A stretch of 64,000 nt of DNA from an uncultured archaeon (GTDB taxonomy: Archaea > Micrarchaeota > Micrarchaeia > Anstonellales > Bilamarchaeaceae): positions 25,637 through 89,636 of the forward strand of contig CAVTHI010000001.1 of the NCBI GenBank assembly GCA_963734525.1, written 5' to 3'. The notes under the pieces are model-generated. The model saw only the letters and a list, made by a program, of their open reading frames with translations. It had not been told where the DNA came from and did no database searches. The position numbers were made by a program, and so were the translations under genes. Below are positions 16,822 through 64,000 of this stretch, piece after piece; positions within the stretch are counted from its first letter, which is position 1; each line of letters starts with the position of its first letter.

Positions 16822-16894
16822 GGGCCATGACCGTGAATCGAACACGGGCCTAGAGGGCCACAGCCTCTCACGCTACCATTACGCCATCATGGCC
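16822..16894 (-). tRNA. tRNA-His (anticodon GTG), with G-1
   Basis: cloverleaf folded by hand: 7-bp acceptor, extra 5' G-1 opposite C73, D-loop with GG, anticodon stem AGAGG/CCTCT, loop CTGTGGC, T-loop TTCGATT. Confidence 0.8.
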
Positions 16895-25925: not shown

Positions 25926-27563
25926 ATGAGAACCTTCCTCGCGTTCGGACTTATCCTGATATTGGGATTGTACGGCTGTATCGGCCAGGCGTGCCCCAGC
26001 ACGGTCGAGCCGGTTTGCGGAAAAGACGGCGTTACTTACACCAACGCATGCCAGGCGGTGCAGGCCGGGACCACGGTCAAGGCCAACGGCACCTGCGAAG
26101 CGAACCTCTGCGAAGATTCGGACGGCGGCAAGGACCTGTTCAACCAGGGGACCGCCTCGGCCCGCGGAGGCAGTGTCCAGGACAAGTGCAAGGATGCGCT
26201 TACCGTGACCGAAGCGTACTGCTCGGCCAGTGCGGCGGTCTCGGAAGACTTCCCCTGCCCGGGCGGCTATGCGTGCATGGCAGGCGCATGCGTCAAGACG
26301 CCCTGCCAGGATACCGACAACGGGAAGGATGCGAATGTCAGGGGCACGGTTACATCGCCCGGGACAAGCGCCAGCGACGAGTGCACGGGCTCATATTCGG
26401 TCAAGGAATACTATTGCAGCGGCGATGCGGCCAAATCCGAGGATATCGCATGCGGCGACGGGATGCAGTGCGTCAGCGGCGCGTGCATCGAGGCGGCGTG
26501 CGTCGATTCGGACGGCGGCAAGGATGCCCTGAAAAGCGGCACCGTCACGAAGGGGCAGGATACGTTCCAGGATGCGTGCAGCGGCTCCACTGCGGTGAAG
26601 GAATACTACTGCAGCGCAAAGAATGTCCAATCCGAGGTGCTCCCGTGCGGGTCCGGGTTCGTCTGCCAGGACGATAAGTGCCTCAAGGAGGTCTGCACCG
26701 ACAGCGACAACGGCAAGGACACCTCGGTGAAAGGCACGGCGTCATACCAGAACAAGACCGGGACCGACAGCTGCTACAGCAGCACGGCAGTCCTGGAATA
26801 TTTCTGCTATTCCGAGACGTCGATGCAGTACGAGAAGATCAACTGCCCGAGCGGCAAGGAATGCTTCGACGGCAAGTGCAGGACTGTCGAGTGCACCGAG
26901 GTCGTGACGAATATCGACGAGGCCAACAAGAGGTATAACATAGCGAACTACGACGACACCGACGAGCTCTTCCTCCACGTCGGGGAGGTAGTCGAGATAA
27001 ACGACGAGTTCCTTGTGAAGCTGTATTCAATCAGCGGCAACACATCCACGTTCAGGATGTACGAGAACTACCAGGCCCTCAAGGACAACGACCACCTCTG
27101 CGCCTTCTCTCTCGACGATGGCGACAGCGACAATGATTTCTGCGGCGAGAACACCGAGACCATCGAGATACTTTCGGTGAACGACAGCGAGGACATGGTC
27201 GAGCTTTCAATCGGCGAGTACCACGCGGTCCAGTTCTACACCCAGGAGGGCAGCATCAGCGACTGGACTGACAACCCGATTTGCCCCGATGACGAGACCG
27301 TCTACGACCTGTACAAGTCGGAGTTCTACCCCTACCTCGACACGTCAGCCTCGCACCTCGACCTCGAAGGGAAGAGGTTCGACATATTCGACACGACTGC
27401 GAGGATAATCGACGTGTCGAGCGACACGGTGACAATCGAGCTTGACGGGGAGGAATTCGAGCTCGGGACCGGCGACAGGTTCGACTACCTCGGCCAGGGC
27501 TACAGGGCCACGCTGACGTTCAACGACGGCGGGCTCTTCAAGTTCGACGCCAGGCCGTCCTGA
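25926..27563 (+). CDS. secreted cysteine-rich protein: signal peptide, Kazal-like module, 4 tandem ~65-aa Cys repeats, acidic C-terminal domain
   Basis: hydrophobic N-terminus; PVCGKDGVTYTNAC Kazal signature with six Cys; repeats begin C-x-D-(S/T)-D-(G/N)-G-K-D and contain EYYCS and C-x-G-x-C motifs. Confidence 0.7.
   Translation: MRTFLAFGLILILGLYGCIGQACPSTVEPVCGKDGVTYTNACQAVQAGTTVKANGTCEANLCEDSDGGKDLFNQGTASARGGSVQDKCKDALTVTEAYCSASAAVSEDFPCPGGYACMAGACVKTPCQDTDNGKDANVRGTVTSPGTSASDECTGSYSVKEYYCSGDAAKSEDIACGDGMQCVSGACIEAACVDSDGGKDALKSGTVTKGQDTFQDACSGSTAVKEYYCSAKNVQSEVLPCGSGFVCQDDKCLKEVCTDSDNGKDTSVKGTASYQNKTGTDSCYSSTAVLEYFCYSETSMQYEKINCPSGKECFDGKCRTVECTEVVTNIDEANKRYNIANYDDTDELFLHVGEVVEINDEFLVKLYSISGNTSTFRMYENYQALKDNDHLCAFSLDDGDSDNDFCGENTETIEILSVNDSEDMVELSIGEYHAVQFYTQEGSISDWTDNPICPDDETVYDLYKSEFYPYLDTSASHLDLEGKRFDIFDTTARIIDVSSDTVTIELDGEEFELGTGDRFDYLGQGYRATLTFNDGGLFKFDARPS
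26106..26895 (+). repeat. four tandem ~195-bp intragenic repeats encoding the Cys-rich modules
   Basis: repeat starts tgcgaagattcggacggcggcaagga / tgccaggataccgacaacgggaagga / tgcgtcgattcggacggcggcaagga / tgcaccgacagcgacaacggcaagga. Confidence 0.7.
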
Positions 27564-44925: not shown

Positions 44926-46188
44926 TCACTCGTATCTCAGGGATTCGATGGGCGAGATTGAGGCCGCGTTCCTCGCAGGGACTATCCCCGCTATGATGCC
45001 CACGATGACCGAGAAAAACAGTCCCATGGCGACCAGCTCCAGCGTGATTGACGAGGGCAGGTCGAACATCGACAGCACTATGGATGCGAAGAAGCTCAGG
45101 CCCACGCCCGCAGCGCCCCCTATGAAGCCGAGCGTCGCCGCCTCGATGAGGAACAAACGCACGATATCTTTGTCTTTCGCCCCGAGCGCCTTGAAGACGC
45201 CGATGGTCTTGGTCTGCTCGAGCACGCTCATGAACATCGTGTTGAGGACTCCAATGCCGCCTACGATGAGCGATATCGAGGCTATGCCGCCAAGGAACAG
45301 CGTCAGCGTGCTTGTAATCGATGACACGGCGGATTGCATGGTTGTCGCCGTCACCACCGAAAAGTCGGCCTCCTCGTCATCGGAAAGCCCGTGGAGGGAC
45401 TTGAGTTCGGATTCCACATCAGCCGCCACCGAGTCGGGGTCATAGCCGTCCTTTGCCACGATGATGAGCTCGCCCGCATCCTCGTCCTCGTCGAAGAGGT
45501 CCTGCGCGGTCTCGATTGGGATGTAGACGCTGCTGTCCTCCCCGCCCATGCCGCCGGATTCGCCCAGGATGCCCACTACCTTGAATGCGACGCCGTTTAT
45601 CTCTATCTGGTTGTTGAGCATTTCTTCTTCCCCGTCCCCGTCGCCATTGAATACGGTATGCGCGACATTGTAGCCGATGACCGCCACGTAGTTGTCGCTG
45701 ACGCCAAGCAGGCGGCCGCTCTCGAGCTCCGTTGTCAATGTCTCCGGGAACGCGTCGGGGTCGGTGCCTATGACGCTAAGCGTGGTGTTCTTGGCCTTGT
45801 AAACGATTATCGCGCGCTCCTCAAGCCGGGCGTCTATGGCGGATATCCCGGAAATCGAACGGAGCTCGTCGGCTTCGTCGAAGGTTATGGACGCGTCATC
45901 GGGCTCTTCCTCCCCGAACGCCCCGCCCGGCGGCGGCCCCCCGCCCCCGCCTGCCAGCCCCATGCCCATCATGCGCCCTGCCCGCGTCGAACCGGCGGTG
46001 ACGGTTATCTGGTCGGCCCCAAGCGAGCTGGTCTGCCTGGTCACGTTCTCCTGCATCCCCATGCTTATCGATATGAGGGTTATTATCGCCGCTACGCCGA
46101 CGACAATGCCCAGAATGGTGAGCCAGCTGCGCAGCTTCTGGTGCATTATGTTCGTAAGGGCGATTTCGATGCTATCTTCGAGTTTCAT
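44926..46188 (-). CDS. ABC transporter permease, MacB/FtsX-like
   Basis: N-terminal TM, large extracytoplasmic domain, C-terminal FtsX 3-TM bundle. Confidence 0.8.
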   Translation of the reverse strand: MKLEDSIEIALTNIMHQKLRSWLTILGIVVGVAAIITLISISMGMQENVTRQTSSLGADQITVTAGSTRAGRMMGMGLAGGGGGPPPGGAFGEEEPDDASITFDEADELRSISGISAIDARLEERAIIVYKAKNTTLSVIGTDPDAFPETLTTELESGRLLGVSDNYVAVIGYNVAHTVFNGDGDGEEEMLNNQIEINGVAFKVVGILGESGGMGGEDSSVYIPIETAQDLFDEDEDAGELIIVAKDGYDPDSVAADVESELKSLHGLSDDEEADFSVVTATTMQSAVSSITSTLTLFLGGIASISLIVGGIGVLNTMFMSVLEQTKTIGVFKALGAKDKDIVRLFLIEAATLGFIGGAAGVGLSFFASIVLSMFDLPSSITLELVAMGLFFSVIVGIIAGIVPARNAASISPIESLRYE

Positions 46189-47809
46189 CCGAGCCCTCCG
46201 GGCCTTTCTTCTTGCCTTTCAGCTTCCTGTACCCGATGTACAGCCCGCCGAGAATGACGAGGCCCATGCCGGCATACAACGGGATGTTTTCCGTGGAACC
46301 GCCGCCCATGGGGCTGCCCGGGCGGCCGTTGAAAGTGCGGTTCCCGGACAACGTTGCGGCGGCTCCGGATGCGCCCCCTGCGTCCGCTGCCGCCGAATCC
46401 CCAATCAGCGCGATGGTTTTCTTCACGGTATGCTCGACATTGTCGTTGTCCTTGAAGACGACCGTCAGCGGGATGCCTGCCGAAGCGCCGGCGGGGACCT
46501 GGCCAAGCGGAGTAACCGTCACCGAATAGCTCGCGTAATCATCGACGCTGAGGGTCCCGATGAATTTCTCTCCCGAGCCGCTTACCCGGTAGTACTGCGT
46601 CGAGTCCGCCCGGACATACAGGGAGCGGACCGCGGTGTTTCCGATGTTGGATATCTTGGCAGTTATCTGGGTGCCATCATCGGCTGGCTCCGTCTCGGAT
46701 GTCAGGAGGATTTCCGGCGTGGCCTGGACCACTATGCCGACCTCGTATGTTTTCTCATCTCCATTGGTCTGCATGGAAATCGGGAGGGTGTAATAGCCCG
46801 ATGTGGACCCGGCATCCACGCCCAGGGTAAGTATTTCCGAGCGGCTTTCGCCCGGGGCGATATTGTCCAGATAGAACGTGTTGACGCCTATCGGGGTGAA
46901 CACGTCGGTTCCGTTGGCCGTGATGACTGCGGACTGCACGCTGCTGCCCCGGTTCTCGATAGTCAGGTTGTAGAGCAATTCCGACCCGATTTCGCTCTTT
47001 GAGACAGGGCTGCAGGTGATGCGGAGCGCAGATGAGGAGCCGGACACCATCACCGGGCCCAGGTATATCGTCTGGGATATCTCGTTCTGGAGGGCATCCT
47101 CGTATGTCAATGTGAGGGGAATGGCATATTTGCCCTCCGCCGCATCCGATGACGAGATCATCTGGACGGTGACATTCCTGCTCGAGTTCGCGTCGATGTC
47201 GCCCACCCTTTTCTGCGTCGTGCCGTCCAGGCTAAACGATGAGTTGTCGGCATTCTTGATGATGACATTCTTCATGATGCCGCCCGTGTTCTCGAGTTCC
47301 AGCGTTGCGGTGAGCGTCTCGCCCTTGCCGATGCTGTTGCTGCTCAATGAGAGCGTCCTGACTTCCAGCACCCCGTGCTGGTTGATTATGATGGGGATTG
47401 TTGACATCGTATGCTTGGAACCGGTCTCGTCCTCGTCCATGTAATAGATGTCGACGTTCACCAGCAATATTCCGCTGTCCACCTTTTCCGGCGCTTCGAA
47501 CGGTATTGTAGTAGTCATTTTGGAATCCGGCCCGATGTCCCCGAGGTAAAGGTTCCAGTTCTGGTCCGAACCGTACGTGTAATATACCACGGTGCCCTTG
47601 GCGGCCTCCGTCCCGGTGTTCGATACCGTGATTTGGAGCTGGCCAGAGGTTCCGGGGTATACGGAGGAAGGGACGATCGTGTAATCAGTCACCTGAAGGA
47701 CCGGGGCGGTCGAATCGACACTGAATGCCGCGGTCGAAAAAACCAATAGTACTGCAACGAATATGTTCAAGTTCTTCATTTCACCACATCCCGAGCGTTG
47801 ATTTTTCAT
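46172..47809 (-). CDS. cell-surface beta-sandwich repeat protein (CARDB/COG1470-like) with C-terminal TM anchor
   Basis: signal peptide, several ~100-aa Ig-like segments rich in T/S/N/G, C-terminal TM plus KGKKKG; co-directional with MacB-like ABC genes. Confidence 0.55.
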   Translation of the reverse strand: MKNQRSGCGEMKNLNIFVAVLLVFSTAAFSVDSTAPVLQVTDYTIVPSSVYPGTSGQLQITVSNTGTEAAKGTVVYYTYGSDQNWNLYLGDIGPDSKMTTTIPFEAPEKVDSGILLVNVDIYYMDEDETGSKHTMSTIPIIINQHGVLEVRTLSLSSNSIGKGETLTATLELENTGGIMKNVIIKNADNSSFSLDGTTQKRVGDIDANSSRNVTVQMISSSDAAEGKYAIPLTLTYEDALQNEISQTIYLGPVMVSGSSSALRITCSPVSKSEIGSELLYNLTIENRGSSVQSAVITANGTDVFTPIGVNTFYLDNIAPGESRSEILTLGVDAGSTSGYYTLPISMQTNGDEKTYEVGIVVQATPEILLTSETEPADDGTQITAKISNIGNTAVRSLYVRADSTQYYRVSGSGEKFIGTLSVDDYASYSVTVTPLGQVPAGASAGIPLTVVFKDNDNVEHTVKKTIALIGDSAAADAGGASGAAATLSGNRTFNGRPGSPMGGGSTENIPLYAGMGLVILGGLYIGYRKLKGKKKGPEGSDETRR

Positions 47810-59045: not shown

Positions 59046-61586
59046 TCAGCTGCCGCTAGGGATGCTCGGCGCGCTCGCGTTCGAGCTGTTGTTGGGGATG
59101 TACGGCGTCCCGCTTAAGGGGAGCGGGCGCTCCATGAGCTGGAAAAGCCGCTTCCCGTCGGGGCAGAAGTTGTTGTCGCACCCGTTGCTCAGGTAGATGA
59201 AGGCCTCGACCTTCTTCTTGCCAGGGTCGGCCTGCCGCGCGAGGAAAGGCACTTCGCATTCCTGCACGTACTGGATGAAATCCGTGTAGCCGTAGCATTC
59301 GTAGGGCGGGTTCTTCTTCGGGTGCCCGTCCTGGCACCGGCTGTCGCTCTGGCCGTCGGACGAGGCGCAATAGGTCTCGTTGATGGCCCAGCTCTGCGAG
59401 AAGCCGTACGCCCAGCAGTCGCCGTTCGACACGCTGCTTGAGCAGCGCGGGTGGTCCGCGGCCCTGGCCTTCGAGCCCCAGAAGCCGGAGTACATGTTGC
59501 CTGCGATGTATAATGCGAAAAGGTTGTCCTTGTCGAGGTCACCTGCGCCCCAGTTCAGCTTGCCCCTGTTCGTGTTTATCCAGCCCCTGGCGTTCCTCAT
59601 CATCGCCTCTATCTTGAGGGTGCCGATGCAGATGGAATCGGTAGGGACGAATGGGTTGAAATTTGGATTGCATCCTTTTGCGCCGCTAAGGTCGAGATTG
59701 CGCATGCCCGAGCGGGTGAATATGTCTTCATACGGGCCGTCGCCGCCGCCTGGGAAGTTCGGGGCCGGCCAGAACGTGAACGGCGGCTCGAGGCTCTGCA
59801 TTATGCCGACGGCGCACCAGCGCCAGTCCGGCTGCGCGGCCGGAGGCGCGTTCGTGAGGTTCGCGTTGCAGTTGCCGTCCGGGTCGTACATCTCGTCGTA
59901 TGCTATGTCGTAGCACTCGTCCTTGCCCGGCCCGGGCTCGAAGCATCCCGGCCCGTCATAGCCCTGCTTGCAGACCTTCGCCGCCGAGCAGGGGTTGAAG
60001 TCGCTTTCGGTAAGTATGAATGCGCGGACTATCATCGGGTCGAGGTTGCGCGCACTCGCCCACTGGTTGATTTCCGGGAAGCTGTTGCAGTACCGGTCGG
60101 GCGGAACGCCGCCGCCGGGCGAGAGGCTCGTGAAGATGCTTGCAAGCGGCCTGCTGGCATTCGATATCAGGCACGCGTCGCACGTGAAGAGGAGCGGCGC
60201 CGGGGCGCGGAGCTGGTTGGTCTGCTGCTGCATGATGTCGCGCCCTGCGAAAGCGAAACCGCGCATGTAGTCCTGGTTCTCGTTCGCATTGCACGCCGTG
60301 CCCGATTCGTTGCCGAAAAGGATCAGGCGGTTGCCGGAGTTCTGGCCGGAAACGTTGGAGAACGCCTGGCAGCCCCCGTACCATGCCTGGAGGCGCTGCG
60401 CCGTCCTGCCCACGCCGCAGTTCGTGCAGTTGAGGGGGTTCGTGACGCCGATTCCGCCGCTCGTGTTGAATGAATATGGCGCTATGCCTATCACGCCGCG
60501 CTTCTGCAGCGTGGACACCCCGAAGGGGAAGAACGACCCGTATGCGGCGACCACGTCGCTTTCGGTCCAGTTGCACGAGTTGTCGATATCGCTCGTCCCG
60601 GGGTCGAAAAGGACGTACGGGATGATGGAGGGCTTGCTCCAGTTGTAAAGGGAATACATCGAGAAGTTCGTGGCCTGCGAACGGACGCGCGCGGCGTCGC
60701 ATGAATGGACGTACTTGCCGTTGATGCCGTACGCCACGTAGTCGACCTTGTCCGCATCGGCGCCGAGGGCCATCATCACGTCGTTAAGCGCATTGAAGTC
60801 GTTGATTTTCGGGGCGACCGCGATGAAGCAGTATATTTTTCCTGCGGCACGGTCGTTCCTGCACTCCTGGTCGATTGCGCGGACCTGGTTGGCGATTTCC
60901 GGCGCCCTGCTCCGGTCGAAGTCCATCTCCGTGACGACTATCACCGGGCCGACGGGGCCGCTGGAGAGCCTCCCGAGGTAGACATCGTCGCCTTCGGTTC
61001 CTAGTATCCTCGCGATGTCCTGCGTGCGGCTGATGTTGATGTTGGTGCCGTTGCTGTACAGGATGTAGACCGGTATGATGTCCTTGCTGAGGAAGCACAT
61101 CGTGCGCATCGAATCGGGGCGCAGGTACGGAGATTCGTTGTTCCCCACCAGCCACTGGACGGCCATGTTCAGGCGGTCCGAGCAGAACGTGTTCGCCGTG
61201 CCGAAATCGCCGAACGTCGGACCCTGCCCTATCATGAACGGGCGCACCGAAAGGCTCTGGTCCATGGAGGTATTGTTGTAGTTGGCATAGCGCGCCATCT
61301 GCTGGGGCGTGCAGTTCTTGTCGAAATAGCAGTAGCCGCCTATCAGGCTTTGCATGGGGCCGAAGATGTTCGTGCCGTTCCGGCAGACCATGCACCAGCA
61401 GCTTCCGGGCTTGCAGTACTCGACCATGGAGGCGTTGTTGATCGCCACGCGGTTGAGGCCGTCGCGGTAATCCTGTTCGAAGAGCGAGGAGCCGCCGTTC
61501 AGCCTCTGCAGGCATCCCGTGAGCACGATAGCCCCGCCCAGCACGACCGCTATGGCCAGTATGAATGCCGCTCGCCTCGAATCCAT
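59046..61586 (-). CDS. large secreted cysteine-rich protein (846 aa) with many N-x-S/T sequons and an embedded SLT-like lytic transglycosylase motif set
   Basis: N-terminal TM/signal with LTGC; >40 Cys; >20 sequons; ILTESDFNPCSAA ... CAVGIMQ ... ALYIAGNMY resembles ES / GLMQ / AYNAG motifs of family-1 lytic transglycosylases with an insertion. Confidence 0.6.
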   Translation of the reverse strand: MDSRRAAFILAIAVVLGGAIVLTGCLQRLNGGSSLFEQDYRDGLNRVAINNASMVEYCKPGSCWCMVCRNGTNIFGPMQSLIGGYCYFDKNCTPQQMARYANYNNTSMDQSLSVRPFMIGQGPTFGDFGTANTFCSDRLNMAVQWLVGNNESPYLRPDSMRTMCFLSKDIIPVYILYSNGTNINISRTQDIARILGTEGDDVYLGRLSSGPVGPVIVVTEMDFDRSRAPEIANQVRAIDQECRNDRAAGKIYCFIAVAPKINDFNALNDVMMALGADADKVDYVAYGINGKYVHSCDAARVRSQATNFSMYSLYNWSKPSIIPYVLFDPGTSDIDNSCNWTESDVVAAYGSFFPFGVSTLQKRGVIGIAPYSFNTSGGIGVTNPLNCTNCGVGRTAQRLQAWYGGCQAFSNVSGQNSGNRLILFGNESGTACNANENQDYMRGFAFAGRDIMQQQTNQLRAPAPLLFTCDACLISNASRPLASIFTSLSPGGGVPPDRYCNSFPEINQWASARNLDPMIVRAFILTESDFNPCSAAKVCKQGYDGPGCFEPGPGKDECYDIAYDEMYDPDGNCNANLTNAPPAAQPDWRWCAVGIMQSLEPPFTFWPAPNFPGGGDGPYEDIFTRSGMRNLDLSGAKGCNPNFNPFVPTDSICIGTLKIEAMMRNARGWINTNRGKLNWGAGDLDKDNLFALYIAGNMYSGFWGSKARAADHPRCSSSVSNGDCWAYGFSQSWAINETYCASSDGQSDSRCQDGHPKKNPPYECYGYTDFIQYVQECEVPFLARQADPGKKKVEAFIYLSNGCDNNFCPDGKRLFQLMERPLPLSGTPYIPNNSSNASAPSIPSGS

Positions 61587-61609: not shown

Positions 61610-61619
61610 ATTAAAATAC
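61610..61619 (-). promoter_or_regulatory. TATA-box-like element (rc agtattttaa) ~25-30 nt upstream of the 59046..61586 start codon
   Basis: AT-rich element at archaeal leaderless-promoter spacing. Confidence 0.3.
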
Positions 61620-61768
61620 TAGCGATTCCGGGCAGTTTCGGGCCAGGGGGGCGGATTTTGGGCAGGAATCGCCGGACTGGCCGGTTGTATGGGAAAAAAG
61701 AAATAGAAAAAAGGCCAAGAATGAAATGAATCCATTAGGAAAAGGAAGAAAAAATGAAAAAATAAGGC

Positions 61769-64000
61769 CTAGTACATGGCCTGCTTGCATGCCGAGTTCT
61801 TGCACATGCTCCCGCGGTAGTTGGACATGCCGCACTTCGGGCAGTACACCACCATCGAGAGCTTCTGGGGCTGGACCAGCTTCGAGAGGCCCTGTCCCAT
61901 GCCTTCCGCCATGCCGCGCAGGTTCGAACCGAACCCGCCGCCGCCGTAGCCGTGCTTCGAGCGCGCGACGTATTTCGCGGCAATCTCCTTCGGAGTCGCC
62001 GACTGCGGGAACAGCGGAACCGGCATGTGCCATATGAAGGCAAGCGGGTTGGCCCACCCGAAGAGCGAGTTCTGCAGCACGCCGAAGCCTCTCAGCTCCT
62101 GGTCCCTGCGTATTGCGAGGGACTCGGCTGAAACCGTCCTTCTCGTGGTGTTGTCCATCGCGGCCGAGTAGAGGTCCTTGTCATAGAGGTAGGTTGCCTC
62201 CTTGCTCCTGAAGAGGTACTCCGCCATCGGCGCGTCGGCCTTCATCGTCATCCTATAGTCGTAGAAGGTTTCGCCGGGGTTGACGTCCTCCGTTCTCGCA
62301 TTCGCATAGACACCCTTCTTCTGCAGGAATATGTCCTGCGGCGCCTGCCTCAGGCCGGTCATGTAGTCGTGCCCGGCAAGCTGGTGCCTCTCGAGGCTGC
62401 CTCCGAAGACGTTCATCTTCGCCATCGTGTCGGAGCTCTTGCCGCCGAACCACTTGAATGACATCGGGTTCAGGGACTGCATTGCTTCAAGCACCCTGGG
62501 CTCGGTGTAGTTCCACTGGCGCAGCGCATCCCCGGTGGAGTCCCACTTGGACGCGTAGCCCTGCATGGACATCTGCATGCCCCTCATCATGCTCACGTAC
62601 GGGCGGAGCATCTTGCCTGCCATGTCCATCGGGAATCCGTAGGGCCCCAGGGTGAAGTTCATATACTCGCCCTTGCCCATGAACGCCCTCAGGTTGTCCT
62701 TCACGTTGAAGGGGACGGCAGGGCCGTAGTGGAACGACGCGGCCCACGCCTGGTGGGTTCCGAAGGAGGACGATATCCTCCACGGGTTCCTGTCTATGGC
62801 GTACTGCCATACCTGGACGTATGCGCCGTGCTGGGCCGCGACCGCCCTGTATGCAATCTTCTCCTCGTCGGAGAGGCCGTTCAGTATCTGGCCGGACTGT
62901 ATCTTGTTCGCCAGCTGGAACGAGTGCATCCTCAGCTGGGATGACGTCGGCGTTATGTCGTATGACGTGTTCAGCAGGTTCCCGCCAGCCGCCATCGCTA
63001 CCTTGGAGATGTAGTCCCCGCCGTGCATGCCTATGTCCCTGAAGGGCTTTATCATCGGGCCCATGCTGGGGCCGTCCACGCCGAAGAAGCGCAGCGACGA
63101 GGGCGCGACAGGAGTGACCTGGCGCTTGGCCTCGACCGTGATTGCGCTCTCGTTCCAGAAGCGCCCGTAGTCGTAGGTCCTCTGGGCTCCTTCCCAGAGC
63201 ACGGACGCGAGCACGCGCTCCTTCTCGTAGTTGTACCCGCCCTCCTTGGCCCACTTGACCGCGGAGTCGAGGAATCCGGTCCATTCGGCCGGGTCCTTGG
63301 ACGAGCGCACCTTCTGGAACTGCATCTGGAGGTCGTCCCGGCTGCCGAAGCTGACGACGACGTCCTCCGGTATGAATTTCCGGAGCACGCCCTTCTCGTC
63401 GCGCAGGGCCGTTTCGCCGGCCATGATGCGGTCCGCATCGCTGAGCATCATGCCCTTCTTGTAGTAGGCATAGCCTCCTTCGCCGAGCATGACTACGGCC
63501 TTGTTGGCCTTGGCCACGTCATCGTAGCTCATGTCCCTCGTTATGACCTTCTGGTAGGACTCCTTGTGCGTGTTCATGAGGTCTTTCAGCTTCGCAAGGT
63601 CCTTGGGGCTCGTGAGGTCCATCTTCGAGAGGAACATCAGGTCGGGGTGGTTGTTCTCCATGCCCTTCTCCTGGAGCGCCTTCTCCATGAAGCCGGCCAT
63701 CACGCCCGCGTAGAACCTCGTGGTCTCGCGGGTGGTGCCGTAGGTGTTTTGCCCGAAGTGGGAGTTGAACCTCGACTCGAAGTCCTGCATGAGCGTCTCG
63801 GTTATCGCGAGCTTCTTCACCACCTGGGTCCTCTGCTCCACGGTCCAGCTTGCCGAGCCGGCCATCCGGTTGGCCTGCGCCTCTACCGAGGCGTTGTAGT
63901 AGGGCGTGTAGCTCCTCGTGAACCTGGACTCGGTGGACTGAGCTATCGCGATGTTCTCCCGCGCGCTCAGTTCCGGGATCCAGTGCCTCTTGACATCCAC
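61769..64000 (-). CDS. large hypothetical protein (>743 aa, 5' end outside window) with C-terminal C4 zinc ribbon
   Basis: uninterrupted 743-codon ORF to window edge; Met/Gly/Tyr-rich; ends CPKCGMSNYRGSMCKNSACKQAMY; no recognised domain. Confidence 0.55.
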   Translation of the reverse strand: MDVKRHWIPELSARENIAIAQSTESRFTRSYTPYYNASVEAQANRMAGSASWTVEQRTQVVKKLAITETLMQDFESRFNSHFGQNTYGTTRETTRFYAGVMAGFMEKALQEKGMENNHPDLMFLSKMDLTSPKDLAKLKDLMNTHKESYQKVITRDMSYDDVAKANKAVVMLGEGGYAYYKKGMMLSDADRIMAGETALRDEKGVLRKFIPEDVVVSFGSRDDLQMQFQKVRSSKDPAEWTGFLDSAVKWAKEGGYNYEKERVLASVLWEGAQRTYDYGRFWNESAITVEAKRQVTPVAPSSLRFFGVDGPSMGPMIKPFRDIGMHGGDYISKVAMAAGGNLLNTSYDITPTSSQLRMHSFQLANKIQSGQILNGLSDEEKIAYRAVAAQHGAYVQVWQYAIDRNPWRISSSFGTHQAWAASFHYGPAVPFNVKDNLRAFMGKGEYMNFTLGPYGFPMDMAGKMLRPYVSMMRGMQMSMQGYASKWDSTGDALRQWNYTEPRVLEAMQSLNPMSFKWFGGKSSDTMAKMNVFGGSLERHQLAGHDYMTGLRQAPQDIFLQKKGVYANARTEDVNPGETFYDYRMTMKADAPMAEYLFRSKEATYLYDKDLYSAAMDNTTRRTVSAESLAIRRDQELRGFGVLQNSLFGWANPLAFIWHMPVPLFPQSATPKEIAAKYVARSKHGYGGGGFGSNLRGMAEGMGQGLSKLVQPQKLSMVVYCPKCGMSNYRGSMCKNSACKQAMY

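What the first reader, a model, noticed from the sequence alone, without database searches (positions are those of the whole stretch)
61769..64000. Uncharacterised >743-aa protein with terminal C4 zinc ribbon, co-oriented immediately upstream of the SLT-like glycoprotein gene
This is a long, uninterrupted ORF running off the window edge with no domain I can place. It is Met/Gly/Tyr-rich and ends in CPKCGMSNYRGSMCKNSACKQAMY. It is only 180 bp from the start of the secreted SLT-like gene and on the same strand, so the two may be co-transcribed. Large orphan proteins next to envelope-lytic enzymes can be virion or structural components or effector-delivery components.
Basis: seen in the sequence. 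Interest (0 to 1): 0.55.

Follow-up and report, generated by a model that had tools for sequence, protein, structure and literature searches.

The report
Micrarchaeota-specific giant membrane protein, unknown fold
The ORF is the last 46% of a roughly 1,600-residue membrane protein found so far only in Micrarchaeota (tiny symbiotic archaea); it matches no known protein family or solved structure, and its gene almost always sits beside the gene for a surface lipoprotein resembling a cell-wall-cutting enzyme, so the two probably work together at the cell envelope.

Summary
A 743-codon ORF at 61769-64000 (-) runs off the window edge, ends in a conserved C4 zinc ribbon, and lies 182 nt upstream of the co-oriented SLT-like gene. 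It is only a fragment. In 24 Micrarchaeota genomes the gene encodes 1,565-1,617 aa, and distant members reach 2,009 aa.

The architecture is the same in 127 full-length members:
- signal peptide
- about 200-aa Cys-rich ectodomain
- one TM helix
- highly conserved juxtamembrane motif
- about 1,330-aa mainly helical cytoplasmic region
- C-terminal zinc ribbon

Nothing matches in Pfam, NCBIfam, PHROGs, PADLOC or PDB sequences. A confident AlphaFold model of the window part (pLDDT 83, pTM 0.82) has no Foldseek match in PDB or BFVD. The gene is under purifying selection (dN/dS 0.11). It lies in core chromosome (TopoVI, TFB) and is absent from viral and plasmid collections.

The pairing with the SLT-like lipoprotein holds in 29 of 31 informative loci. 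It survives local inversions and F0 divergence to about 18-20% identity.

Best reading (inferred, not shown): a new lineage-specific envelope module. The giant protein couples the extracellular glycan-cleaving lipoprotein to the cytoplasm, possibly at the host contact. A virion or effector origin is not supported.

The parts
61769..64000 (-). F0: C-terminal 743 codons plus stop of a roughly 1,600-aa Micrarchaeota-specific type-I membrane protein. This part is entirely cytoplasmic. The N-terminal ~860 aa lie beyond the window edge.
   Evidence: ORF and translation. 94% identical to residues 862-1604 of L006:7418-12232 (1,604 aa). dN/dS 0.11. AF2 model pLDDT 83.3, pTM 0.82. No family or fold match.
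61772..61843 (-). C-terminal C4 zinc ribbon (CPKC...C....C, fragment residues 720-743).
   Evidence: The four Cys are invariant in A1. In the 54-sequence alignment A2 two are invariant and two are >=90% conserved. Short beta strands are predicted with pLDDT 83-91. Pfam hits are weak and below cut-off: zf-tcix 19.5 bits vs 31.2 and Zn_ribbon_3.
62006..63049 (-). Best-conserved core of the window fragment (residues 318-665: KPFRDIGxH ... DRNPWR ... QMSMQGY.SKWD ... NPG.S.YDYR ... RRTVSAE ... GWxxP..F.WH.P.P).
   Evidence: Invariant and near-invariant columns in A1, A2 and A3. Per-block conservation. The invariant residues are mostly G, P, R, N and W; no conserved His/Ser/Cys or NTPase motif.
63347..63481 (-). 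Small beta unit with the conserved motif EGG(Y/F)xxYxKGMxLSDxDR...G..R.F.P.
   Evidence: Strands predicted at fragment residues 169-208 in both AF2 runs. Second most conserved stretch of the cytoplasmic region.
61694..61762 (-). Four T6 tracts directly after the F0 stop codon; archaeal terminator-like.
   Evidence: Sequence. Oligo-T tracts follow the F0 stop in nearly all related loci. Function inferred from general knowledge of archaeal oligo-T termination; not tested.
61611..61618 (-). TATA-like box (TATTTTAA), centred about 28 nt upstream of the F1 ATG. It suggests F1 has its own promoter and a leaderless or short-leader mRNA.
   Evidence: Sequence. A comparable A/T box lies about 25-35 nt before the F1 ATG in most related loci. 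Inferred, not mapped.
59046..61586 (-). F1: 846-aa extracellular partner candidate with 36 Cys and 21 N-x-S/T sequons.
   Evidence: ORF. Orthologue directly downstream of F0 in 29 of 31 informative loci. Alignment A4.
61512..61586 (-). F1 signal sequence ending in a lipobox-like L-T-G-C (Cys25).
   Evidence: Cys25 is invariant, Gly24 is >=90% conserved, and a hydrophobic stretch precedes them in all 15 aligned orthologues. The same motif was found at the F1 start in 26 of 29 loci scanned.
59475..60080 (-). F1 SLT-like (lytic-transglycosylase-like) region. Motif I is LDPMxVRAxxxTES with an invariant Glu-Ser; it is followed by G(L/I)MQ and AxYIAxNxYxG.
   Evidence: Invariant D516, P517, R521, A522, E527, S528 and G594; >=90% conserved M596 and Q597. 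11 of 15 orthologues hit Pfam SLT weakly (best E 2e-4; window copy 12.8 bits vs cut-off 21.3). Best PDB profile hit is EtgA, E 0.11, motif I only.

Best explanation
The ORF encodes the cytoplasmic C-terminal 46% of a roughly 1,600-residue, Micrarchaeota-specific type-I membrane protein, called F0 here.

Full-length architecture:
- cleavable-looking signal peptide
- about 200-aa Cys-rich, fast-evolving ectodomain
- one TM helix
- an extremely conserved juxtamembrane motif, GKSP(L/I)SLLDITTPRLPxPK
- about 1,330 aa of mainly alpha-helical cytoplasmic protein, with no detectable relative in sequence or in the structure libraries that could be searched
- a C-terminal C4 zinc ribbon

Shown: the gene is real, under purifying selection and part of the core chromosome, and its topology is N-out/C-in.

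Inferred:
- F0 works with the adjacent extracellular, lipobox-bearing, SLT-like protein F1 as an envelope-spanning module.
- The F0 ectodomain meets F1 outside the membrane.
- The TM and juxtamembrane segment transmits to the large cytoplasmic body, which acts as a scaffold or regulator rather than an enzyme. No conserved catalytic-type residues or NTPase motifs are present.
- The zinc ribbon docks a cytoplasmic partner.

The logic resembles membrane-spanning regulators or scaffolds that position or activate extracellular cell-wall hydrolases. Examples from my own knowledge, not tested here, are specialised lytic transglycosylases of bacterial trans-envelope machines and FtsEX-type hydrolase activators.

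The most likely biological setting is remodelling of surface glycan at the contact with the host cell. This last step is the least certain.
For: Anatomy:
- Full-length ORFs of 1,565-1,617 aa in 24 Micrarchaeota genome loci.
- Same architecture in all full-length members.
- Over 127 full-length members: ectodomain Cys 2.34 per 100 aa vs 0.16 cytoplasmic; sequons 1.03 vs 0.46 per 100 aa; K/R 3.0 after vs 1.1 before the TM.
- The TM and juxtamembrane block is the most conserved part, at 3.4 bits per column.
- Zinc-ribbon Cys are invariant or near-invariant.

Real and constrained: dN/dS 0.11.

No known family or fold:
- Pfam, NCBIfam, PHROGs, PADLOC.
- PDB sequence and profile searches.
- AF2 model pLDDT 83.3, pTM 0.82, with best Foldseek E 0.56 in PDB and 0.12 in BFVD and TM-scores of about 0.1 or less relative to the query.

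Coupling to F1:
- F1 lies directly downstream and co-oriented in 29 of 31 informative loci.
- The pair stays adjacent where the TopoVI block is inverted (L015, L022, L028).
- It also holds where F0 is only about 18-20% identical: L032, with a 4-nt overlap and F1 hhalign E 9e-78; L033, E 4e-38.
- Evolutionary distances of F0 and F1 correlate better with each other (r 0.90) than with TopoVI (0.72-0.80). The partial r controlling for TopoVI is 0.73.

F1 is extracellular and SLT-like: lipobox-like signal, 34-40 Cys, conserved E-S / GLMQ / AYxxG-like motifs, and weak SLT hits in 11 of 15 orthologues.

Surface parts evolve fastest. Mean distances are F0 ectodomain 1.78, F1 1.04, F0 cytoplasmic 0.71 and TopoVI 0.17-0.34.

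Precedent: large extracellular SLT-domain proteins in other DPANN lineages are proposed to act on host walls (PMC8204110, PMC9723730). 'Lytic murein transglycosylase' genes were noted in three Micrarchaeota genomes (PMC5864196).
Against: - No direct evidence of a physical F0-F1 interaction.
- The two genes look like separate transcription units in most loci (T tracts plus TATA-like box).
- The whole neighbourhood is syntenic in this group, so some of the adjacency could be inertia.
- The most divergent clade (L030, L035) has F0 without an adjacent F1.
- F1's SLT assignment is below curated thresholds, and its substrate is unknown. The known Micrarchaeota hosts named in the papers read here are archaea (Thermoplasmatales, Metallosphaera), which from general knowledge lack murein.
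- Mirror-tree correlations are inflated by shared rate variation and carry no p-value.
- The core-genome location and strong constraint fit a housekeeping role as well as a host-contact role.
Confidence: 0.4

Rival explanations
1. Housekeeping envelope or cell-biology role in the Micrarchaeon itself, independent of any host. F0, with or without F1, would serve for example in S-layer or surface-glycan maintenance, cell division or membrane organisation.
For: - Single-copy gene in a conserved core-gene neighbourhood: TFB, PLD-like nuclease and P-loop ATPase upstream; TopoVI A/B, KH and HEAT genes downstream.
- Strong purifying selection.
- High GC3 and low dS, which could reflect high expression.
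- In the divergent clade the gene sits next to ribosomal protein S8e and the r-protein/SecY cluster.
Against: - The ectodomain and F1 evolve 3-10 times faster than neighbouring housekeeping genes, which is more typical of interaction surfaces.
- No murein or other SLT substrate was found described for Micrarchaeota in the papers read; the Micrarchaeum harzensis study describes a single membrane covered by an S-layer (10.1101/2021.04.28.441871).
- The family is confined to one symbiotic phylum.
Confidence: 0.25
2. F0 acts on its own. Its adjacency to F1 is merely inherited gene order and the two proteins are functionally unrelated.
For: - The wider region is also syntenic.
- A separate terminator-like and promoter-like signal lies between the genes.
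- The L030/L035 clade lacks the adjacency.
Against: - The pair persists through three independent local rearrangements.
- It persists to about 18-20% F0 identity, with overlapping stop and start in L032.
- Correlated rates exceed those with TopoVI.
- Both proteins have Cys-rich extracellular parts.
Confidence: 0.2
3. F0 is a nucleic-acid- or ribosome-binding membrane tether or translocase. It would use its zinc ribbon and large cytoplasmic body, for example for DNA or RNA uptake from the host.
For: - Terminal zinc ribbon whose weak PDB profile hits are ribosomal or RNA-binding zinc ribbons (bL32, eL40, Nop10; E 0.1-1.3).
- A conserved P-loop ATPase+wHTH gene is divergently adjacent.
Against: - The hits are not significant and are generic to zinc ribbons.
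- There is only one TM helix.
- There are no NTPase motifs in F0.
- No similarity to FtsK/HerA/VirD4-type translocases appeared in any search.
Confidence: 0.1
4. One reading: a virion, structural or effector-delivery component of a virus or mobile element.
For: Large helical proteins next to SLT enzymes do occur in phage ejection systems (own knowledge). The BFVD Foldseek list contains internal virion and tape-measure proteins, but only at E 0.7-5.
Against: - No relative in IMG/VR, INPHARED phages or PLSDB plasmids, or PHROGs.
- Foldseek TM-scores are about 0.1 or less relative to the query.
- The chromosomal position among housekeeping genes is conserved in all genomes.
- No integrase, capsid or terminase genes nearby.
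Confidence: 0.03

Closest known systems
[quoted passage not shown] 2021, PMC8204110; Vigneron et al. 2022, PMC9723730)
   Same: DPANN archaea. A secreted or surface protein with an SLT-like domain in organisms that make no murein. Proposed role in attachment to or attack on a host envelope.
   Different: Those are single giant extracellular proteins (up to ~3,000 aa) with a recognisable SLT domain. Here the SLT-like region is very divergent (below Pfam cut-off) and sits in a separate 850-aa lipobox protein (F1). The protein under study (F0) has no SLT domain, is about 85% cytoplasmic and is unrelated in sequence. No homology between the families was tested or found.
Specialised lytic transglycosylases attached to bacterial trans-envelope machines (EtgA of T3SS, VirB1 of T4SS, FlgJ), and membrane-spanning activators of wall hydrolases such as FtsEX (own knowledge, apart from the EtgA hit)
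   Same: An extracellular glycan-cleaving enzyme is encoded next to, and presumably controlled or positioned by, a membrane-spanning protein with a large cytoplasmic part. The best (non-significant) PDB profile hit of F1 is EtgA.
   Different: No ATPase, secretin, needle, pilus or ABC components are nearby. F0 has no sequence or fold similarity to any component of these systems. This is an archaeal single-membrane envelope. It is an analogy of logic only.
Generic C4 zinc ribbons / treble-clef fingers (Pfam zf-tcix PF14952, Zn_ribbon_3 PF13248)
   Same: CxxC-(9-10)-Cx(2-4)C at the extreme C-terminus with predicted short beta hairpins. Weak hits to these models.
   Different: Scores are below the gathering thresholds. 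The ribbon is under 2% of the protein and says nothing about the function of the rest.
Lineage-specific giant proteins of other DPANN proposed to act in host interaction (e.g. SPEARE proteins of Nanohaloarchaeota; recalled from memory, not checked here)
   Same: Very large, lineage-restricted proteins in episymbiotic DPANN that are suspected to act at the symbiont-host interface.
   Different: As I recall, SPEARE proteins are mostly extracellular and carry recognisable protease, adhesion and nuclease domains. F0 has only a ~200-aa ectodomain and no recognisable domain.
Micrarchaeota S-layer protein SLP_Mh (Micr_00292; Gfrerer et al., bioRxiv 10.1101/2021.04.28.441871)
   Same: A large, secreted, glycosylated surface protein of Micrarchaeota with an N-terminal signal or TM segment. 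It was considered as the identity of F1.
   Different: SLP_Mh has S-layer domains (PF05123) and almost no sulfur-containing residues. F1 has 34-40 Cys and no S-layer domain hit. F1 is therefore not the S-layer protein.

Membership tests
Any curated protein family (Pfam-A, NCBIfam, PHROGs, PADLOC) for F0 | Score above the curated or significant threshold for any model over the 743-aa fragment or full-length homologues | tested here: not met
   Only sub-threshold zinc-ribbon hits were found. Searches (Pfam; 27 divergent members scanned; NCBIfam; PHROGs; PADLOC).
Any solved structure (PDB) or viral predicted structure (BFVD) for the F0 C-terminal region | Significant sequence or fold similarity | tested here: not met
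C4 zinc ribbon (generic) | Four conserved Cys in a CxxC...CxnC arrangement on two beta hairpins | tested here: met
   C720, C723, C733 and C738 are invariant in A1. In the 54-sequence alignment two are invariant and two are >=90% conserved. Strands are predicted with pLDDT 83-91. Metal binding itself was not testable.
Pfam zf-tcix (PF14952) | Score at or above the gathering threshold of 31.2 bits | tested here: not met
   19.5 bits for the window copy; at most 24.8 bits in the relatives tested.
Type-I (N-out/C-in) bitopic membrane protein | N-terminal signal peptide, a single internal TM helix, positive-inside distribution, and extracellular markers confined to the N-terminal segment | tested here: met
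   Hydrophobic N-terminus plus one TM at about residue 200-270 in essentially all full-length members. K/R 3.0 after vs 1.1 before the TM; Cys 15-fold and sequons 2-fold enriched in the ectodomain. Based on a hydropathy heuristic; no dedicated predictor or experiment.
SLT / GH23-type lytic transglycosylase (for the neighbour F1) | Pfam SLT score at or above 21.3 bits | tested here: not met
   Window copy 12.8 bits, E 0.091. 11 of 15 orthologues hit weakly, best E 2e-4. PDB profile: EtgA at E 0.11, motif I only.
SLT / GH23-type lytic transglycosylase (for the neighbour F1) | Catalytic Glu in an E-S motif, followed by GLMQ and AYNxG-type motifs | tested here: inconclusive
   E527-S528 are invariant. 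G594 is invariant and M596/Q597 are >=90% conserved. An AxYIAxNxYxG motif is present. The spacing contains long Cys-rich insertions. No fold model or activity test was possible (structure-prediction jobs exhausted).
Lipoprotein with lipobox (for F1) | Hydrophobic signal sequence ending in [LIV]-x-[GAS]-C | tested here: met
   Cys25 is invariant and Gly24 is >=90% conserved in A4. The motif was found at the F1 start in 26 of 29 loci scanned. Lipid modification itself was not testable.
Viral or mobile-element protein (virion, ejection or effector-delivery) | Relatives in viral or plasmid sequence collections, or a location within a provirus or mobile element | tested here: not met
   No relatives in IMG/VR, INPHARED phages or PLSDB plasmids, or PHROGs. 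Flanked by conserved housekeeping genes in all genomes.
Archaeal S-layer protein (for F1) | S-layer domains (e.g. PF05123), with few Cys or Met | tested here: not met
   No S-layer domain hit. 34-40 Cys per protein. Compared with SLP_Mh as described in 10.1101/2021.04.28.441871.

The most novel reading that the evidence does not exclude
F0 and F1, possibly with the divergently adjacent P-loop ATPase+wHTH gene, constitute a previously undescribed envelope-spanning apparatus specific to Micrarchaeota. A fast-evolving extracellular pair (the F0 ectodomain plus an SLT-like lipoprotein) would engage or open the host cell surface. It would be wired through a single TM helix and a conserved juxtamembrane switch to a 1,300-residue cytoplasmic platform of a new fold. 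In that case this would be a molecular component of DPANN episymbiosis.
Probability: 0.2. Interest if true: 0.8.

Novelty: categorically new. Interest (0 to 1): 0.55.

Why it matters

This family has several properties that make it a concrete candidate for a surface or host-interface component:
- It appears to be single-copy: one copy was seen in each genome locus examined.
- It is found in many Micrarchaeota lineages and is under strong purifying selection.
- It is very large and membrane-spanning.
- It is genetically tied to a surface protein that looks like a glycan-cleaving enzyme.

Its confidently predicted cytoplasmic region has no match in the structure libraries that could be searched, so it may also add a new fold.

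If it instead turns out to be housekeeping, it would point to an unknown piece of cell-envelope biology in this phylum.

A practical point also follows. Public metagenome protein catalogues hold truncated 870-880-aa versions that hide the signal peptide, ectodomain and TM helix.

Tried and rejected
1. **Virion or mobile-element origin.** Rejected: no hits in IMG/VR, phage, plasmid or PHROG collections, and a core-gene context.
2. **F1 as the Micrarchaeota S-layer protein.** Rejected: no S-layer domains and many Cys.
3. **Defence-system component.** No PADLOC hit for F0 or F1. The nearby PLD-like gene gives only generic NucT/DrmC-like hits.
4. **NTPase or metalloprotease.** No Walker A, HExxH or HxxxH motifs.
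5. **Internal duplication or repeat protein.** hhalign of five segments against each other found nothing.
6. **First AF2 run with a 6-sequence alignment.** Uninformative (pLDDT 44). It was superseded by the 85-sequence run.
8. **Taxonomic naming of the most divergent members through exact-sequence look-ups of neighbouring genes.** No names were returned.
9. **Third homologue search with divergent members.** It added almost nothing because of the word index.
10. **Co-transcription of F0 and F1.** Not supported in this genome, where terminator-like T tracts and a TATA-like box lie between the genes. It remains plausible where the gap is 11-37 nt or the genes overlap (L032).
11. **Downstream genes in the divergent clade as cryptic F1 homologues (L030 458 aa, L035 598 aa).** Rejected by hhalign.
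12. **Upstream neighbour F3 as Orc1/Cdc6.** Only weak generic AAA/wHTH hits; not assignable.
Full report
**1. Observation**

The minus strand of 61769-64000 carries an uninterrupted 743-codon reading frame. It ends ...VVYCPKCGMSNYRGSMCKNSACKQAMY-TAG and runs off the right edge of the window. Composition is Met 6.0%, Tyr 5.1%, Gly 8.3% and Trp 1.9%. The next gene downstream on the same strand is the 846-aa ORF at 59046-61586, after a 182-nt spacer.

Pfam gives only a sub-threshold zinc-finger hit (zf-tcix, 19.5 bits against a cut-off of 31.2). A PDB sequence search gives nothing.

**2. Organism and true size of the gene**

The adjacent genes are archaeal housekeeping genes: topoisomerase VI B and A, a KH-domain protein and a HEAT-repeat protein. 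A scan of one genome per GTDB species found 24 loci that encode relatives. All are from Candidatus Micrarchaeota MAGs. One of them (L006, JAZDMN010000060.1) is 94% identical over all 743 residues.

In those genomes the reading frame is 1,565-1,617 codons long; for example L006:7418-12232 has 1,604. The window therefore holds only the C-terminal 46%.

The first homologue search returned five metagenome proteins of 425-881 aa. These sit on 2.7-3.8-kb contigs and are truncated calls starting at an internal Met.

An exhaustive HMM search of 1.84 billion cluster representatives found 109 clusters, 52 of them below 1e-30. Full-length members range from 1,421 to 2,009 aa. Every member that carries a source name is a 'hypothetical protein' from Micrarchaeota, Micrarchaeia, Bilamarchaeum/Bilamarchaeaceae, or in one case 'Candidatus ainarchaeum sp.'.

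**3. Anatomy of the full protein (F0)**

All full-length members share the same plan:
- a hydrophobic N-terminal signal, often followed by an A-x-A-type site as read by eye, e.g. ...ATAVFA/DE
- an ectodomain of about 200 aa
- one TM helix at about residue 200-270
- about 1,300-1,700 cytoplasmic residues
- a terminal CxxC...C..C motif

Statistics over 127 full-length members support an N-out/C-in topology:

| Feature | Ectodomain / before TM | Cytoplasmic / after TM |
|---|---|---|
| Cys per 100 aa | 2.34 | 0.16 |
| N-x-S/T sequons per 100 aa | 1.03 | 0.46 |
| K/R in the 25 residues next to the TM | 1.1 | 3.0 |

The most conserved block of the whole family is the TM helix plus the cytoplasmic juxtamembrane motif GKSP(L/I)SLLDITTPRLPxPK, at 3.4 bits per column. 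This block lies outside the window.

Within the window part, the conserved elements are:
- a small beta unit with the motif EGGYxxYxKGMxLSDxDR (fragment residues ~169-218)
- a core from residue 318 to 665 containing DRNPWR, QMSMQGY.SKWD, NPG.S.YDYR, RRTVSAE and GWxxP..F.WH.P.P
- the four zinc-ribbon cysteines

Invariant residues across 54 diverse sequences are mostly G, P, R and N, plus the Cys. There is no Walker A, HExxH or comparable motif and no internal repeat. I read this as pointing to a scaffold or adaptor rather than an enzyme; that is an inference.

**4. Structure**

With six sequences AlphaFold gave an unusable model (pLDDT 44). With an 85-sequence alignment (A3) the model of the 743 residues is confident: mean pLDDT 83.3, pTM 0.82, and 642 residues at 70 or above. 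It is mostly alpha-helical and includes a 60-residue helix (310-369), a small beta unit and a terminal zinc-ribbon hairpin pair.

Foldseek found no significant match:
- PDB: best E 0.56
- BFVD viral proteins: best E 0.12
- TM-scores relative to the query were about 0.1 or less in both

**5. Other family libraries**

NCBIfam, PHROGs and PADLOC gave no hit for F0. A Pfam scan of 27 divergent members produced nothing recurrent except weak zinc-ribbon models.

**6. The neighbour (F1)**

The 846-aa product has a signal sequence ending in a lipobox-like L-T-G-C. Cys25 is invariant and Gly24 is at least 90% conserved in 15 orthologues, and the motif was found at the start of F1 in 26 of 29 loci scanned. 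It has 36 Cys; orthologues of more than 700 aa have 29-44. It also has 21 sequons.

Residues 503-704 carry the following motifs:
- LDPMxVRAxxxTES, with an invariant Glu-Ser
- G(L/I)MQ
- AxYIAxNxYxG

These resemble the motif series of SLT/GH23 lytic transglycosylases, which I recall from general knowledge. Statistically the match is weak. The window copy scores 12.8 bits against a cut-off of 21.3. Eleven of 15 orthologues hit SLT, best E 2e-4. The best PDB profile hit is the T3SS-associated transglycosylase EtgA, at E 0.11 and over motif I only.

So 'SLT-like' is reasonable, but membership is unproven. F1 is not the known Micrarchaeota S-layer protein. That protein has PF05123 domains and hardly any sulfur-containing residues (10.1101/2021.04.28.441871). 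The first ~480 residues of F1 match nothing.

**7. Is the pair conserved?**

Yes. I clustered all-against-all BLAST families over the loci fetched up to that point and added the contexts fetched later. F1 lies directly downstream of F0 on the same strand in 29 of 31 loci that extend past the F0 stop, not counting the window itself.

- The pair stays together in L015, L022 and L028, where the TopoVI/KH/HEAT block is inverted or moved.
- It also holds in very divergent members whose F0 is only about 18-20% identical to the reference. In L032 (F0 1,938 aa) F1 overlaps the F0 stop by 4 nt, with hhalign E 9e-78. In L033/L034 (F0 1,751 aa) F1 is 869-879 aa, E 4e-38. In L031 (F0 2,009 aa) F1 is 895 aa.
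- The exceptions are the most divergent clade (L030, L035). There F0 lies between an HTH-CBS gene and ribosomal protein S8e, and the downstream genes are not F1-like.

Pairwise evolutionary distances over 16 loci correlate better between the F0 cytoplasmic part and F1 (r 0.90) than between either and TopoVI A/B (0.72-0.80). The partial correlation controlling for TopoVI is 0.73. This is weak support only, because rate heterogeneity can produce the same pattern.

Mean distances are F0 ectodomain 1.78, F1 1.04, F0 cytoplasmic 0.71 and TopoVI 0.17-0.34. The surface-exposed parts are thus the fastest-evolving.

**8. Transcription**

Directly after the F0 stop there are four T6 tracts (61694-61762). 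A TATTTTAA box at 61611-61618 is centred about 28 nt before the F1 ATG. The same arrangement recurs in most related loci, with spacers of 11-243 nt.

By general knowledge of archaeal oligo-T termination and of TATA boxes about 26 nt upstream of start sites, F1 probably has its own promoter and a near-leaderless mRNA. Co-transcription is therefore not required here. It remains plausible where the genes nearly abut or overlap.

**9. Selection**

Against L006, F0 has dN 0.036, dS 0.32 and dN/dS 0.11. F1 has dN/dS 0.11, and TopoVI A and B have 0.03 and 0.05.

F0's dS is uniformly lower (0.20-0.44 in sliding windows) than that of five neighbouring genes (0.54-0.97). Its GC3 is the highest of the set, at 0.894. 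This is unexplained; codon bias from high expression is one possibility.

**10. Not viral or mobile**

Neither F0 nor F1 has relatives in IMG/VR. F0 has none in INPHARED phages or PLSDB plasmids, and neither protein hits PHROGs. The flanks are conserved housekeeping genes in all genomes.

**11. Mechanism proposed**

Shown:
- F0 is a phylum-restricted, strongly constrained type-I membrane protein.
- Its small Cys-rich ectodomain evolves fast.
- It has a highly conserved TM and juxtamembrane segment, a very large helical cytoplasmic body without known relatives, and a terminal zinc ribbon.
- Its gene is persistently linked to that of an extracellular, lipobox-bearing, SLT-like protein.

Inferred:
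- The two form an envelope-spanning module.
- F0 positions or regulates F1 outside the membrane.
- F0 connects it, through the TM and juxtamembrane segment, to a cytoplasmic platform whose zinc ribbon docks a partner.

The biological setting could be the symbiont-host contact. That reading is favoured by the fast-evolving surface parts, by an SLT-like enzyme in an organism with no described murein, and by the precedent of SLT proteins in other DPANN (PMC8204110, PMC9723730, PMC5864196). It could instead be the Micrarchaeon's own envelope, which is favoured by the core-genome position and the strong constraint. I give the module idea about 0.5-0.6 and the host-contact setting about 0.3. Overall confidence in the combined statement is 0.4.

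**12. Comparison with the known, and novelty**

The nearest known things are analogies, not relatives:
- DPANN giant SLT-domain surface proteins
- specialised lytic transglycosylases attached to bacterial trans-envelope machines
- membrane-spanning hydrolase activators
- generic zinc ribbons

Lineage-specific hypothetical proteins are common in DPANN, which tempers the surprise. The size, the constraint, the architecture and the conserved pairing make this one a good, testable lead. Interest is 0.55.

Noticed in passing
window 25926-27563 (+): A 545-aa ORF has a Kazal-type serine-protease-inhibitor domain hit near its N-terminus (PF00050 E 2.4e-6, PF07648 E 5.9e-6). As far as I know Kazal domains are chiefly eukaryotic, so this is unusual in an archaeon.
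   Followed up: no
L006:6273-7157 (-), L007:6306-7310 (-); beyond the window's right edge: A ~335-350-aa P-loop ATPase with a C-terminal winged helix is divergently transcribed directly upstream of F0 in the genome loci. It gives only weak AAA, AAA_22, ATPase_2 and HTH_24 hits and is not assignable to Orc1/Cdc6. It stays with F0-F1 where the surroundings are rearranged (L025, L027, L028) and may be a third member of the module.
   Followed up: partly
window 61772-64000 (-) vs L006:10001-12229: Synonymous divergence of F0 (dS 0.32; 0.20-0.44 in sliding windows) is about half that of five neighbouring genes (0.54-0.97). Its GC3 is the highest of the set (0.894). Codon-bias, expression or recombination explanations were not distinguished.
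   Followed up: partly
window 60147-61586 (-) (F1 residues 1-480): The N-terminal ~480 aa of the SLT-like protein match no family. They show conserved short hydrophobic strands ending in acidic residues (VVTEMDFD, IIPYVLFD, GIAPYSF) and many invariant Cys. A second, glycosidase-like (beta/alpha) domain is conceivable but untested.
   Followed up: no
L030:10001-15523, L035:10001-15130: In the most divergent F0 clade the gene is not followed by F1. It lies between an HTH-CBS gene and ribosomal protein S8e. In L035 this is just downstream of the r-protein/SecY/adenylate-kinase cluster.
   Followed up: partly
L001, L002, L003 (P0002, P0005, P0001): Public metagenome protein calls for this family (871-881 aa) are truncated by contig ends and begin at an internal Met. 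This hides the signal peptide, ectodomain and TM helix. L005 shows the gene broken into several frames, probably through assembly errors.
   Followed up: yes
window 44926-47809 (-): A CARDB-domain surface protein (46172-47809) lies directly upstream of a MacB/FtsX-type permease (44926-46188) on the same strand. This may be another surface-related gene pair.
   Followed up: no
window 16822-16893 (-): tRNA-His(GTG) is the only tRNA detected in the 64-kb window.
   Followed up: no
L006:5735-6247 (+) and orthologues: A small PLD-family nuclease-like protein (NucT/DrmC-like; PF13091 E 1.6e-29) is conserved two genes upstream of F0 in many loci. No other defence-system components were seen nearby.
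   Followed up: partly
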